Part shown: in pieces, positions 17,792-34,885 of the stretch | Layout of the letters: every line of letters begins with the position of its first letter | Position numbering within the stretch: position 1 is the first letter of the stretch | From: a virus | Taxonomy: Duplodnaviria > Heunggongvirae > Uroviricota > Caudoviricetes | IMG/VR virus record: IMGVR_UViG_2874951433_000008 | DNA: 40,663 bases | Direction: 5' to 3' (one strand) | The notes under the pieces: generated by a model | What the model was told of the DNA's origin: nothing | The model's database searches: none | What the model saw: only the letters and a program-made list of their open reading frames with translations | Position numbers and translations under genes: made by a program

Positions 17792-17834
17792 TGAGGTGTA
17801 CTGGCAATAGCGGACACTACCATTTGTTCTTTTT

Positions 17835-18626
17835 TTAAGCAGCCATCTGATGATATTTTTCCCTGAAGGCTGCCGGGGAGATATTCCCCAGACGAGAGTG
17901 ACGACGCTGACGATTGTAGAAAATCTCAATGTATTCCCGTATTACTGAGATGGCTTCATCCCGGTTATTAAAACGATAGTGGCTCAGGCTCTCATTTTTC
18001 AGCGTTCCCCAGAAGCTTTCCATCGGAGCGTTGTCGTAACAGTTACCTTTACGCGACATTGATGTTTTCAGACCAAACTGCTCCTGTATGACCCGGTAAT
18101 CGTATGCGCAGTACTGTGAACCTCGATCAGAGTGGTGGATTAGCCCGGCAGGTGGGCGCTGGCTCCTGAGCGCCATAAACAGGGCTTTACCTGTCAGCTC
18201 TTTTGTCATGCGCTCTCCCATGGCGTAGCCGACAATTTCGCACGTATAAACATCTTTGATGCCAGCAACATACGTCAGGTCCGCCACCCAGACCTGATTT
18301 GGTGCTGTAGGAGCGAACGTCTGGTTCAGCAGATTTGGCGCAACTGGCAGATTGTGGTTCGGGTTCGTAGTCGCTCTGAACTTGCGTTTCTGCTTACAGC
18401 GTAGCCTCAGCTCCTTACGAAGACGTGCCAGTCGGTCACGACCAACGATGATGCCATTCTCTGCCAGCTCCGTCTGGAGCCGCCGGGTTCCATATGTTTC
18501 GCGAGTGCGGATATGTGCCACCTTAATCTCCAGTTTTAGCCGCTCATCACTTTGTTTTCTGTCTGAGGGTTCATGCTGTACCCAGTTGTAATAACCGCTC
18601 CTGGATACACCAAATACCTGACACAT
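17835..18626 (-). CDS. IS600 OrfB with internal 9-aa deletion (probably inactive)
   Basis: …VADLTYVA-GIKDVYTCEIVGYAMG… compared with …VADLTYVATQEGWLYLAGIKDVY… in copies 1 and 2. Confidence 0.85.
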   Translation of the reverse strand: MCQVFGVSRSGYYNWVQHEPSDRKQSDERLKLEIKVAHIRTRETYGTRRLQTELAENGIIVGRDRLARLRKELRLRCKQKRKFRATTNPNHNLPVAPNLLNQTFAPTAPNQVWVADLTYVAGIKDVYTCEIVGYAMGERMTKELTGKALFMALRSQRPPAGLIHHSDRGSQYCAYDYRVIQEQFGLKTSMSRKGNCYDNAPMESFWGTLKNESLSHYRFNNRDEAISVIREYIEIFYNRQRRHSRLGNISPAAFREKYHQMAA

Positions 18627-18661
18627 CGCTTCAATGGGAAATTGTTGTCGCCATTGTTCGA

Positions 18662-18964
18662 TTAACGCGTATTTTTCAGCGACTCCTGTGCAAAATACGC
18701 TGTTGCTTTTTTTAATATATCGCGCTCAAGGCGAGCTTCATTTAACGCCTTACGCAGTTGCAGAATTTCAGATTCCAGTTCAGCCACCGTGCGGGAACCA
18801 GGAGTACCGAGCCCTTTTCTGGCGGCGGTAACCCATTGTCCTAAAGTGCCTTCAGGAAGGGATAATCGGGAAGCGCCTTCACTGATCGAAAGTTGATTTT
18901 CAAGAACCGTTCTGACAGCTTCGGCTTTGAACTCTTTAGAGTAACGTTGGGTTTTTCTGCTCAT
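18662..18964 (-). CDS. IS600 OrfA
   Basis: 100-aa ORF; one substitution (RTVAELE vs RRVAELE) relative to copies 1 and 2. Confidence 0.88.
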   Translation of the reverse strand: MSRKTQRYSKEFKAEAVRTVLENQLSISEGASRLSLPEGTLGQWVTAARKGLGTPGSRTVAELESEILQLRKALNEARLERDILKKATAYFAQESLKNTR

Positions 18965-19031
18965 TATTAGCTCCTTCTGATGCCATTCTATTTCAGGAAG
19001 GAGTGTCCGTTAAACTCAGGCTACCTCACAG

Positions 19032-19157
19032 GTCAGTCCATCACAGTGGGCTGCGATTGGTGTGCTGGGAAGTCTGCTTCTGGGGCTTCTGACTTATCTG
19101 ACGAATCTGTATTTCAAAATAAGAGAAGATAAGCGTAAGGCTGCGAGAGGTGAATAA
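19032..19157 (+). pseudogene. Holin (S21-like), 3' portion
   Basis: In-frame continuation [41 protein letters not shown], with the stop overlapping the endolysin ATG. Confidence 0.7.
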
Positions 19158-19672
19158 TGTCGCCATCATTACGCAAGGCTGTTGCAGTTGCTATTGGTGG
19201 CGGGGCTGTTGCTATAGCATCTGTGTTAATCACTGGCCCAGGTGGTAACGATGGTCTGGAAGGTGTCAGCTACATACCATACAAAGATATCATTGGTGTA
19301 TGGACTGTATGTCACGGACACACCGGAAAAGACATCATGCCTGGTAAAACGTATACCGAAGCAGAATGCAAAGCTCTCCTGAATAAAGACCTTGTCACTG
19401 TCGCCAGACAAATTAACCCGTACATCAAAGTCGATATACCGGAAACAACGCGCGGCGCTCTTTACTCGTTCGTTTACAACGTGGGCGCTGGCAATTTCAG
19501 AACATCGACGCTTCTTCGCAAAATAAACCAGGGCGATATCAAAGGCGCATATGACCAGCTACGTCGCTGGACATATGCTGGCGGTAAGCAATGGAAAGGG
19601 CTGATGACCCGTCGTGAGATTGAGCGTGAAGTCTGTTTGTGGGGTAAGCGCCCCATCAGCGACGTCTTGTGA
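19157..19672 (+). CDS. Signal-anchor-release (SAR) endolysin, phage 21 R-like lysozyme; the last 8 codons and the stop come from the adjacent IS66-family element
   Basis: N-terminal SAR-like segment [20 protein letters not shown] followed by a lysozyme domain; the IS66-family inverted repeat begins at 19644 inside the ORF's 3' end. Confidence 0.8.
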
Positions 19673-19725
19673 AAATTGTCCTGTCTGGCAACAATCGCGC
19701 CCATCTATATTGATGGACACGAACG

Positions 19726-33408: not shown

Positions 33409-33449
33409 CAGCCACATGGCCCCCTGGCGGGGCCATTAAGGATGACCCG

Positions 33450-33648
33450 ATGGCAAAAAATGATGCAGTAATACACGTACATACCCCGTTTGTGCTCACG
33501 CTTCCCGACGGTTCTCGGCGCGAGTTTGTTAAAGGCCGTCATGTTGTGGAGGAAGACGTTGCCACGCACTGGTTCACTCGTGCGCACGCGGAAGTATCCG
33601 TTGGCAAAGCCACAGACGCGCGTAACGAGGTAAAAAATGCCAAAGAAT
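33450..33648 (+). pseudogene. Small head-module ORF truncated at its 3' end by IS600 copy 4
   Basis: MAKNDAVIHVHTPFVLTLPDGSRREFVKGRHVVEEDVATHWFTRAHAEVSVGKATDARNEVKNAKEL then reads into the IS600 terminus. Confidence 0.5.
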
Positions 33649-33691
33649 TGAGGTGTACTGGCAATAGCGGACACTACCATTTGTTCTTTTT

Positions 33692-34483
33692 TTAAGCAGC
33701 CATCTGATGATATTTTTCCCTGAAGGCTGCCGGGGAGATATTCCCCAGACGAGAGTGACGACGCTGACGATTGTAGAAAATCTCAATGTATTCCCGTATT
33801 ACTGAGATGGCTTCATCCCGGTTATTAAAACGATAGTGGCTCAGGCTCTCATTTTTCAGCGTTCCCCAGAAGCTTTCCATCGGAGCGTTGTCGTAACAGT
33901 TACCTTTACGCGACATTGATGTTTTCAGACCAAACTGCTCCTGTATGACCCGGTAATCGTATGCGCAGTACTGTGAACCTCGATCAGAGTGGTGGATTAG
34001 CCCGGCAGGTGGGCGCTGGCTCCTGAGCGCCATAAACAGGGCTTTACCTGTCAGCTCTTTTGTCATGCGCTCTCCCATGGCGTAGCCGACAATTTCGCAC
34101 GTATAAACATCTTTGATGCCAGCAACATACGTCAGGTCCGCCACCCAGACCTGATTTGGTGCTGTAGGAGCGAACGTCTGGTTCAGCAGATTTGGCGCAA
34201 CTGGCAGATTGTGGTTCGGGTTCGTAGTCGCTCTGAACTTGCGTTTCTGCTTACAGCGTAGCCTCAGCTCCTTACGAAGACGTGCCAGTCGGTCACGACC
34301 AACGATGATGCCATTCTCTGCCAGCTCCGTCTGGAGCCGCCGGGTTCCATATGTTTCGCGAGTGCGGATATGTGCCACCTTAATCTCCAGTTTTAGCCGC
34401 TCATCACTTTGTTTTCTGTCTGAGGGTTCATGCTGTACCCAGTTGTAATAACCGCTCCTGGATACACCAAATACCTGACACAT
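33692..34483 (-). CDS. IS600 OrfB with internal 9-aa deletion
   Basis: Identical to 17835..18626. Confidence 0.85.
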   Translation of the reverse strand: MCQVFGVSRSGYYNWVQHEPSDRKQSDERLKLEIKVAHIRTRETYGTRRLQTELAENGIIVGRDRLARLRKELRLRCKQKRKFRATTNPNHNLPVAPNLLNQTFAPTAPNQVWVADLTYVAGIKDVYTCEIVGYAMGERMTKELTGKALFMALRSQRPPAGLIHHSDRGSQYCAYDYRVIQEQFGLKTSMSRKGNCYDNAPMESFWGTLKNESLSHYRFNNRDEAISVIREYIEIFYNRQRRHSRLGNISPAAFREKYHQMAA

Positions 34484-34518
34484 CGCTTCAATGGGAAATT
34501 GTTGTCGCCATTGTTCGA

Positions 34519-34821
34519 TTAACGCGTATTTTTCAGCGACTCCTGTGCAAAATACGCTGTTGCTTTTTTTAATATATCGCGCTCAAGGCGAGCTTCATTT
34601 AACGCCTTACGCAGTTGCAGAATTTCAGATTCCAGTTCAGCCACCGTGCGGGAACCAGGAGTACCGAGCCCTTTTCTGGCGGCGGTAACCCATTGTCCTA
34701 AAGTGCCTTCAGGAAGGGATAATCGGGAAGCGCCTTCACTGATCGAAAGTTGATTTTCAAGAACCGTTCTGACAGCTTCGGCTTTGAACTCTTTAGAGTA
34801 ACGTTGGGTTTTTCTGCTCAT
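34519..34821 (-). CDS. IS600 OrfA
   Basis: Identical to 18662..18964. Confidence 0.88.
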   Translation of the reverse strand: MSRKTQRYSKEFKAEAVRTVLENQLSISEGASRLSLPEGTLGQWVTAARKGLGTPGSRTVAELESEILQLRKALNEARLERDILKKATAYFAQESLKNTR

Positions 34822-34885
34822 TATTAGCTCCTTCTGATGCCATTCTATTTCAGGAAGGAGTGTCCGTTAAACTCAGGCTATCTCA

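What the first reader, a model, noticed from the sequence alone, without database searches (positions are those of the whole stretch)
17792..34885. Two IS600 lineages: copies 3 and 4 share an identical 27-bp in-frame deletion in the transposase catalytic region
Copies 1 and 2 encode the full 272-aa OrfB. Copies 3 and 4 both lack the nine residues TQEGWLYLA immediately after the WVADLTY motif and share the same OrfA substitution. The deleted stretch lies in the conserved DDE-domain core, so these copies are probably non-autonomous. Copy 3 nevertheless has a clean CAG duplication, implying mobilisation in trans by intact copies.
Basis: seen in the sequence. Interest (0 to 1): 0.5.

Follow-up and report, generated by a model that had tools for sequence, protein, structure and literature searches.

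The report
Defective IS600 deletion variant (ISSfl10)
Two of the four IS600 insertion sequences in this Shigella flexneri prophage region carry the same 27-bp in-frame deletion that removes a core strand of the transposase; this is a real, probably crippled variant already catalogued as ISSfl10, and it can spread between resident copies by recombination, so it need not have jumped with outside help.

Summary
Copies 3 (17792-19028) and 4 (33649-34885) are 1237 bp and lack the same 27 bp that the 1264-bp copies 1 and 2 have. OrfB is 263 aa instead of 272 (WVADLTYVA[TQEGWLYLA]GIKD).

The window is from S. flexneri NCTC 9728 (CP026799.1). It is not an artefact: the same junction occurs in at least 12 S. 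flexneri-type assemblies. It is absent from 5,426 E. coli genomes and 72,556 plasmids.

The variant is not new. RefSeq names 376-aa OrfAB proteins with this deletion "ISSfl10 family" and the 385-aa form "IS600 family".

The deletion removes the β1-β2 hairpin and most of β2, next to catalytic D116. The AlphaFold2 core collapses without it, so a dead transposase is likely but untested.

The CAG duplication of copy 3 is real, since the empty site exists in a related prophage. It does not imply trans-mobilisation. In other strains, the sites of copies 1 and 2 hold the deleted allele. A full-length copy sits on copy 3's IRR flank in another strain. Recombination or gene conversion between IS600 copies therefore moves the deletion without transposition.

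The "shared substitutions" are ancestral alleles; copies 1 and 2 are the derived ones. This is ordinary and of low interest.

The parts
17792..19028 (-). IS600 copy 3, 1237-bp deleted (ISSfl10-type) form. It is inserted in the class II holin gene of a lambdoid prophage and flanked by a CAG 3-bp duplication (17789-17791 and 19029-19031).
   Evidence: empty site in L001 (FDAARGOS_943).
17835..18626 (-). orfB of copy 3, 263 aa, lacking residues 122-130 (TQEGWLYLA) of the 272-aa form.
   Evidence: The exact protein is AMN63043.1 and others from S. flexneri.
18662..18964 (-). orfA of copy 3, 100 aa, T59 allele (the widespread form). The A7 slippery site for the -1 frameshift to OrfAB is intact.
18264..18267 (.). 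Deletion junction in copy 3 (27 bp missing; GC microhomology at 18265-18266).
33649..34885 (-). IS600 copy 4, the same 1237-bp deleted form with a G5A change in the left inverted repeat. It has no target duplication. It joins the prophage STY1053-like gene (left) to a C-terminally truncated Mu-type transposase gene (right), so it is a recombination or deletion junction.
33692..34483 (-). orfB of copy 4, 263 aa, identical to that of copy 3.
   Evidence: L003.
34519..34821 (-). orfA of copy 4, 100 aa.
34121..34124 (.). Deletion junction in copy 4.
   Evidence: offset 15857 from copy 3.
2386..3649 (+). IS600 copy 1, full length 1264 bp (orfA 2450-2752, orfB 2788-3606, 272 aa). It carries the 27 bp at 3148-3174.
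4576..5839 (-). IS600 copy 2, full length 1264 bp (orfB 4619-5437, orfA 5473-5775). It carries the 27 bp at 5049-5075. The same insertion site holds the deleted allele in two other genomes (L012a, L013a).
3650..4575 (.). 926-bp prophage segment between the inverted copies 1 and 2. It is inverted relative to the IS-free prophage of FDAARGOS_944. Undoing the inversion restores an ATA/TAT 3-bp duplication.
   Evidence: L014.

Best explanation
Copies 3 and 4 are an internally deleted derivative of the IS3-family element IS600. The deletion has a single origin, and databases already list the form as ISSfl10.

One 27-bp in-frame deletion, between two GC dinucleotides, removed OrfB residues 122-130. 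These residues form the beta1-beta2 hairpin and most of strand beta2 of the RNase-H-like DDE core, six residues after catalytic D116. The rest of the element is intact: inverted repeats, orfA, the A7 frameshift site, and D116/D176/E212. The encoded OrfAB is most likely catalytically dead, which is an inference from modelling.

The deleted allele is confined to S. flexneri-type chromosomes, where it sits at several loci among many full-length IS600 copies. How it came to occupy several loci:
- Homologous exchange between IS600 copies is shown. This includes gene conversion, IS-IS recombination, and inversion or deletion that produces chimeric copies such as copy 4.
- Occasional mobilisation of the deleted element by OrfAB from intact copies is possible but not demonstrated.

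Copy 3 is a bona fide transposition product (CAG duplication). Whether it was already deleted when it inserted cannot be decided from the sequence.
For: Anatomy:
- Alignment of the four copies, translations and junction sequences.

Identity and source:
- The exact 263-aa OrfB is on CP026799.1, which is S. flexneri NCTC 9728.
- In RefSeq, 376-aa OrfAB proteins with WVADLTYVAGIKD are named 'IS3-like element ISSfl10 family transposase', while 385-aa proteins are 'IS600 family'.
- The closest E. coli elements to an ISSfl10-type copy are 99.5-99.8% identical, all 1264 bp, and all labelled IS600.
- ISSfl10 is reported from ISfinder searches in published genome analyses.

Distribution:
- The junction 48-mer is absent from 5,426 E. 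coli genomes and 72,556 plasmids and from JGI metagenomes.
- It is present in S. flexneri assemblies CP097828, LR213452, CP026772, CP034060, CP024473, JASUAW01, UDUH01 and CP182556, in CP178302, and in two IMG/VR prophage contigs.

Structure:
- D116, D176 and E212 are invariant, and W126-A130 are at least 90% conserved in an alignment that includes the window's two other IS3-family OrfBs.
- In the AF2 model of the full OrfB, beta1 is 112-122, beta2 125-134 and beta3 140-146, with core pLDDT about 73-79.
- The model matches the ASV integrase core (1cxu, TM 0.71) and also TnsB and IstA.
- With the same alignment, the deleted protein loses the sheet and residues 78-203 fall below pLDDT 50.
- The Pfam rve score drops from 90.6 to 69.7 bits.

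Exchange between copies:
- Sites with flanks identical to c2 and c1 hold the deleted allele in L012a, L013a and L013b but full-length alleles in the window. The site-specific marker A1212 is shared by win_c2, L012a and L013a.
- The holin IRL flank carries the deleted allele joined to a phage-integrase flank in six other assemblies.
- The holin IRR flank carries a full-length copy in L015.
- SNPs at 169, 307 and 980 are mosaic among deleted copies.

Duplications verified against empty sites:
- Holin, CAG.
- shiA, ATG, 160/160 identity to intact E. coli shiA.
- The c2 site, ATA, once the inversion is undone.
Against: - No experiment shows that the deleted OrfAB is inactive. AlphaFold2 with a 10-sequence alignment gave only moderate confidence (mean pLDDT 60.5 for the intact form) and is not a stability predictor.
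- The ISfinder ISSfl10 reference sequence itself could not be read. The equivalence rests on RefSeq naming.
- Two deleted copies with clean duplications at unrelated sites (holin, shiA) are equally what trans-mobilisation would produce.
- A genome-wide census in NCTC 9728 could not be made with the tools.
Confidence: 0.8

Rival explanations
1. The deleted element is a non-autonomous IS that spreads only by transposition, using OrfAB supplied in trans by intact IS600 copies. Each deleted copy is then an independent insertion of the deleted form.
For: - The inverted repeats of copy 3 are intact and intact IS600 copies lie in the same genome.
- Deleted copies with verified 3-bp duplications occur at two unrelated sites, holin CAG and shiA ATG.
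- All markers across about 920 bp are shared by copies 3 and 4.
Against: - The same insertion sites switch between deleted and full-length alleles among strains, so allele state is uncoupled from the insertion event.
- Copy 4, L002 and L004-L009 are chimeric, without duplications.
- From my own knowledge, IS3-family transposases (IS911) act preferentially in cis, which makes trans rescue inefficient.
- No strain-specific new insertion of the deleted form was found.
Confidence: 0.3
2. The deleted transposase is still active, so ISSfl10 is an autonomous IS in its own right and the deletion is neutral.
For: - The deletion is in frame, and D116, D176 and E212 are kept. orfA, the frameshift site and orfB remain open in most deleted copies.
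- The form is catalogued under its own IS name.
- Deleted copies with duplications exist at more than one site.
Against: - The lost residues W126-A130 are at least 90% conserved, with no gap in any homologue aligned.
- They form beta2 of the central sheet next to the catalytic Asp.
- The modelled core collapses without them.
- The variant stays at low copy number: one junction match was reported in each of the two genomes found in the genome collection.
- Some deleted copies are decaying, with an orfA nonsense mutation in L002 and a frameshift in L013b.
Confidence: 0.05
3. The 27-bp difference is an assembly or consensus artefact in repeated sequence.
For: IS copies are collapsed repeats in many assemblies. 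One contig (L013b) shows an odd 25-bp version of the gap that may be a consensus error.
Against: - The identical junction occurs in at least 12 assemblies from different projects, at different loci, with different linked SNPs.
- Many independently deposited protein records carry it.
Confidence: 0.01

Closest known systems
IS600 (IS3 family; the 1264-bp Shigella element)
   Same: - More than 99% nucleotide identity outside the 27 bp.
- The same inverted repeats (TGAGGTAGCC...GTACACCTCA).
- The same orfA/orfB layout with an A7 -1 frameshift site.
- A 3-bp target duplication, and an rve DDE domain.
   Different: Copies 3 and 4 are 1237 bp. They lack OrfB residues 122-130 (beta1-beta2 hairpin and most of beta2), so the transposase is probably inactive.
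ISSfl10 (IS3-family entry; RefSeq 'IS3-like element ISSfl10 family transposase', S. flexneri)
   Same: RefSeq proteins with this name are 376 aa and carry exactly the same WVADLTYVA|GIKD junction. One such copy shares its left flank with window copy 3.
   Different: - Those reference-like copies carry OrfA S57F, OrfB S (EQSGL) and C-terminal QMTA. The window copies have S57, F (EQFGL) and QMAA, so the deletion sits on several recombined haplotypes.
- The ISfinder record itself could not be inspected.
Non-autonomous internal-deletion derivatives of transposons mobilised in trans (for example MITEs)
   Same: The ends are intact, the transposase is damaged, and autonomous partners are present in the same genome.
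   Different: Only 27 bp are missing and the ORFs stay open. Movement in trans is not shown, whereas exchange by homologous recombination is shown.
Concerted evolution or ectopic gene conversion among multicopy IS elements
   Same: Orthologous insertion sites differ in allele between strains, neighbouring inverted copies are homogenised (c1 and c2 differ at 3 positions), and SNP patterns are mosaic.
   Different: Nothing unusual. Here the converted tract happens to carry a disabling in-frame deletion.

Membership tests
IS3 family / IS600 | Two consecutive ORFs (orfA with an HTH, orfB with an rve DDE domain) joined by a -1 programmed frameshift at an A-rich slippery site. | tested here: met
   orfA is 100 aa and orfB is 272 or 263 aa. 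TTAAAAAAAGC lies at element position 314 in all four window copies. Pfam finds HTH_21 + rve + rve_3 + rve_2, and RefSeq fused OrfAB forms are 385 or 376 aa.
IS3 family / IS600 | An intact DDE catalytic core (RNase-H-like fold with all five strands). | tested here: not met
   Met for copies 1 and 2. In copies 3 and 4, D116, D176 and E212 are retained but residues 122-130 (beta1-beta2 hairpin and most of beta2) are missing, and the model of the deleted form loses the sheet. This is in-silico evidence only.
IS3 family / IS600 | Terminal inverted repeats ending 5'-TG...CA-3'. | tested here: met
   TGAGGTAGCCTGAG... and ...CAGTACACCTCA are present in all copies. Copy 4 has one change, G5A.
IS3 family / IS600 | A 3-bp target-site duplication. 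| tested here: met
   Copy 3 has CAG, checked against an empty site. The c2 site has ATA after undoing the inversion. Copy 4 has none and is chimeric.
IS3 family / IS600 | Near-identity to elements annotated as IS600. | tested here: met
   Identity is 99.0-99.7% to IS600-annotated elements in Shigella plasmids and E. coli genomes, always as two pieces separated by 27 bp.
ISSfl10 | OrfAB of 376 aa carrying the nine-residue gap after WVADLTYVA. | tested here: met
   P0151, P0152, P0159 and P0160, all named ISSfl10 family, have the identical junction. The window orfB matches them across the junction.
ISSfl10 | Identity to the ISfinder reference nucleotide sequence (length, inverted repeats). | not testable with these tools
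The available papers only list the name.
Non-autonomous element mobilised in trans | Independent insertions of the deleted form itself (duplication-flanked copies at sites never occupied by the intact form). | tested here: inconclusive
   Duplication-flanked deleted copies occur at the holin site and at shiA. However, the allele state switches at fixed sites in other strains, so a duplication does not date the deletion.
Non-autonomous element mobilised in trans | An autonomous partner encoding a compatible transposase in the same cell. | tested here: met
   Copies 1 and 2 in the same window have intact orfA and orfB.

The most novel reading that the evidence does not exclude
The deleted OrfAB keeps its DNA-binding and multimerisation parts but lacks a working catalytic core. 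It might act as a trans-dominant inhibitor that poisons IS600 transpososomes, comparable to the Tn5 inhibitor protein or P-element KP repressors. It might then be retained in S. flexneri because it damps the IS600 expansion. The open reading frames kept in most deleted copies are compatible with this but do not demonstrate it.
Probability: 0.06. Interest if true: 0.5.

Novelty: already known. Interest (0 to 1): 0.15.

Why it matters
The finding matters little beyond curation, for three reasons.

1. An element catalogued and annotated as a separate IS (ISSfl10) is probably just a disabled IS600 that lacks a core strand of its transposase. Tools that count it as an active IS may overstate IS diversity.

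2. The window gives a clean example of IS copies at fixed sites exchanging alleles by recombination. A target duplication around a defective copy is therefore not evidence that the defective form transposed.

3. Surveys of IS insertion sites in Shigella cannot distinguish these alleles. They may mis-date IS activity if gene conversion is ignored.

Tried and rejected
- A sequence search of OrfB against PDB chains gave no hit at E <= 0.01. The fold was placed with an AF2 model plus Foldseek instead.
- A JGI metagenome scan for the junction found nothing.
- A viral-contig scan for the holin-IRL junction found nothing.
- A genome-wide count in NCTC 9728 was not possible. Shigella chromosomes are not in the annotated collections, and the look-up of encoding contigs showed only one of the window's two copies for CP026799.1.
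- A composite-transposon reading for copies 3 and 4 was considered, since they are direct repeats around 14.6 kb of prophage. It was rejected because the outer flanks CAG and ATA do not match, and the right flank of copy 4 is unrelated Mu-like DNA.
- An independent recurrence of the deletion was considered and rejected. The junction is identical everywhere, with only 2 bp of microhomology. L013b (a 25-bp net gap, equal to the 27-bp deletion plus TA) looks like a secondary change or a consensus error.
- Papers mentioning ISSfl10 only list the name, without length or description.
- The Shigella IS population study treats IS600 as one query and does not mention variants.
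Full report
**1. What is in the window**

Repeat finding and a four-way alignment show four IS600 copies:

| Copy | Coordinates | Gene strand | Length |
|---|---|---|---|
| c1 | 2386-3649 | + | 1264 bp |
| c2 | 4576-5839 | - | 1264 bp |
| c3 | 17792-19028 | - | 1237 bp |
| c4 | 33649-34885 | - | 1237 bp |

- c3 and c4 lack the same 27 bp that c2 has at 5049-5075 and c1 at 3148-3174.
- The c3 junction lies at 18264-18267, with a 2-bp GC microhomology.
- OrfB is 272 aa in c1 and c2 and 263 aa in c3 and c4. The sequence WVADLTYVA-TQEGWLYLA-GIKD becomes WVADLTYVA-GIKD.
- c3 and c4 also share OrfA T59 (R in c1 and c2), OrfB F in EQFGL (S in c1 and c2) and one base upstream of orfA.
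- c3 and c4 differ from each other only by G5A in the left inverted repeat of c4.

The only inaccuracy is that the lost residues begin two positions after WVADLTY.

**2. Source and context**

- The exact 263-aa protein is encoded on CP026799.1. That record is S. flexneri NCTC 9728, serotype 5a.
- Window positions 5840-33648 are a lambdoid prophage that is 99% identical to prophages in E. coli FDAARGOS_943 and 944.
- The prophage is riddled with other ISs: an IS66-family element at 19726-22345, another IS3-family element (orfA/orfB) at 22885-24089, and an IS2-type element at 26596-27869.
- c3 interrupts the class II holin gene. The IS-free prophage reads GGATCAGGTCAG, and the window has CAG on both sides of the IS.
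- c4 has the prophage STY1053-like gene on one side and a Mu-type transposase gene on the other. That gene is truncated at 544 aa and stops inside the IS end. There is no duplication, AAT vs ATA. c4 is therefore a recombination or deletion junction, not a simple insertion.

**3. Not an artefact, and not new**

- A 48-nt probe across the junction cannot seed on full-length copies. It finds nothing in 5,426 complete E. coli genomes or 72,556 plasmids, which include 140 Shigella plasmids with IS600. It also finds nothing in JGI metagenomes.
- The junction does occur in these records:
  - S. flexneri CP097828, LR213452, CP026772, CP034060 and CP024473
  - JASUAW01 and UDUH01
  - S. flexneri CP182556
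  - CP178302, a 4.44-Mb chromosome labelled E. coli
  - two IMG/VR prophage contigs
- In RefSeq, the 376-aa OrfAB proteins with exactly this gap are named 'IS3-like element ISSfl10 family transposase [Shigella flexneri]', while 385-aa proteins are 'IS600 family'.
- The best E. coli matches to an ISSfl10-type copy are 99.5-99.8% identical, all 1264 bp, and all labelled IS600. The ISSfl10 label therefore tracks the deletion.
- ISSfl10 is reported from ISfinder and related tools in published genome analyses. I could not read the ISfinder record itself.

**4. What the deletion does to the protein**

- In an alignment with IS600 relatives (81-92% identity) and the window's two other IS3-family OrfBs (an IS2-type and a 279-aa protein), D116, D176 and E212 are invariant.
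- In that alignment, W126, L127, Y128, L129 and A130 are at least 90% conserved, with no gaps.
- An AF2 model of the 272-aa OrfB was built from a shallow 10-sequence alignment. Its mean pLDDT is 60.5, and the core is about 73-79. It gives beta1 112-122, beta2 125-134, beta3 140-146, alpha1 151-164 and beta4 172-175.
- Foldseek matches the model to retroviral integrase cores (ASV 1cxu, TM 0.71) and to TnsB, IstA and MuA.
- Residues 122-130 are therefore the end of beta1, the hairpin, and six of the ten residues of beta2, directly after the first catalytic Asp.
- With the same alignment, the 263-aa protein loses all predicted sheet, and residues 78-203 fall below pLDDT 50. The N-terminal helical domain is unchanged.
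- The Pfam rve score falls from 90.6 to 69.7 bits.

Inactivity is thus a well-founded inference, but it is not shown.

**5. How the deleted allele came to be at several places**

Thirteen IS600 copies were compared with their flanks.

- *Clean duplications.* c3 has CAG. A shiA::IS copy in CP182556 and CP178302 has ATG, and its reconstructed empty site is 160/160 identical to intact E. coli shiA.
- *Chimeric deleted copies.* c4 is one. L002 joins a plasmid-type ospF/ShET2 flank to the chromosomal yciI region. L004-L009 share the holin IRL flank of c3 but are joined on the other side to a phage integrase next to a pectinesterase gene.
- *Allele switching at the c1 and c2 sites.* Two IMG/VR contigs contain the very sites of window copies 1 and 2, with identical flanks on both sides.

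| Genome | c2 site | c1 site |
|---|---|---|
| Window (NCTC 9728) | full length | full length |
| L012 | deleted | full length |
| L013 | deleted | deleted (with an extra TA) |

  - The site-specific marker A1212 is shared by win_c2, L012a and L013a. This shows that they are the same insertion.
- *An old inversion at this site.* The IS-free prophage of FDAARGOS_944 shows that the c2 IRL flank and the c1 IRR flank are two halves of one target with an ATA duplication. It also shows that the 926-bp segment between c1 and c2 is inverted in the window.
- *A full-length copy on the holin flank.* A full-length IS600 sits on the holin IRR flank in another genome, L015.
- *Mosaic SNPs.* Among deleted copies, SNPs at 169, 307 and 980 form incompatible combinations.

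Together these results show that IS-IS recombination and gene conversion move the 27-bp gap in and out of fixed insertions. The duplication around c3 proves that an IS600 transposed into the holin gene. It does not prove that the deleted form did. Trans-mobilisation remains possible, and the shiA and holin copies would fit it. It is not required, and for IS3-family elements it is expected to be inefficient because of cis preference (IS911 literature, my own knowledge).

**6. Polarity of the 'lineages'**

- OrfA with T59 is the common form, seen on at least 1000 contigs. The R59 form of c1 and c2 was seen on 2 contigs.
- All eleven other copies examined have T60 and C240.
- F in EQFGL is the state in more distant relatives and in a full-length S. 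boydii copy, P0015.
- c3 and c4 are therefore an older haplotype plus one derived deletion. c1 and c2 carry the derived point changes and have been homogenised with each other, differing at only 3 positions.

**7. Verdict**

- This is a real, correctly described feature.
- It is a catalogued, S. flexneri-restricted, probably defective IS600 derivative (ISSfl10).
- The inference of trans-mobilisation is not justified, because recombination between copies is demonstrably at work.
- The finding is ordinary IS biology and of low interest.

Noticed in passing
window 2386-5839: Copies 1 and 2 are inverted repeats 926 bp apart, and their flanks only make sense after an inversion. The c2 IRL flank and the c1 IRR flank are the two halves of one target (ATA duplication) in the IS-free prophage of FDAARGOS_944, and the 926-bp inner segment is inverted. 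The two copies differ at only 3 positions, which suggests homogenisation.
   Followed up: yes
window 34883-36517 (- strand): A Mu-type transposase gene (HTH_Tnp_Mu_1/2, DDE_2, Mu-transpos_C) is truncated at 544 aa. Its stop codon is supplied by the last three bases of IS600 copy 4. A Mu-like prophage remnant therefore abuts the lambdoid prophage through the IS.
   Followed up: partly
window 19726-22345, 22885-24089, 26596-27869, about 7590-8921, 22377-22658: The prophage carries further ISs. These are an IS66-family element (three ORFs, downstream of the lysozyme gene), another IS3-family element (orfA/orfB), two IS2-type copies (one splitting the terminase gene, as in FDAARGOS_943), and a 282-bp repeat at 22377-22658 that matches the ends of both IS2-type copies.
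   Followed up: partly
L002 (UDUH01000015.1), 1-6792: A deleted IS600 copy with an orfA nonsense mutation joins virulence-plasmid-type genes (ospF, ShET2/Toxin_15) to the chromosomal yciI-yciC region, without a target duplication. This is either a plasmid segment integrated through IS recombination or a chimeric contig.
   Followed up: no
L013:11306-12543: The copy at the c1 site in one IMG/VR contig has TATGTTGTACTGGC at the junction, which is the 27-bp deletion plus TA (25 bp net, out of frame). It is either a secondary mutation or a consensus error.
   Followed up: partly
L011 (CP178302.1): A 4.44-Mb chromosome labelled Escherichia coli ECMA0423 carries the same shiA::deleted-IS600 insertion as S. 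flexneri SFBU1023.
   Followed up: no
L012a, L013a, L013b, element position 323: A G323T change lies immediately after the A7 slippery run (TTAAAAAAAGC becomes TTAAAAAAATC) in three copies at the c1 and c2 sites of other strains. It could alter frameshift efficiency.
   Followed up: no
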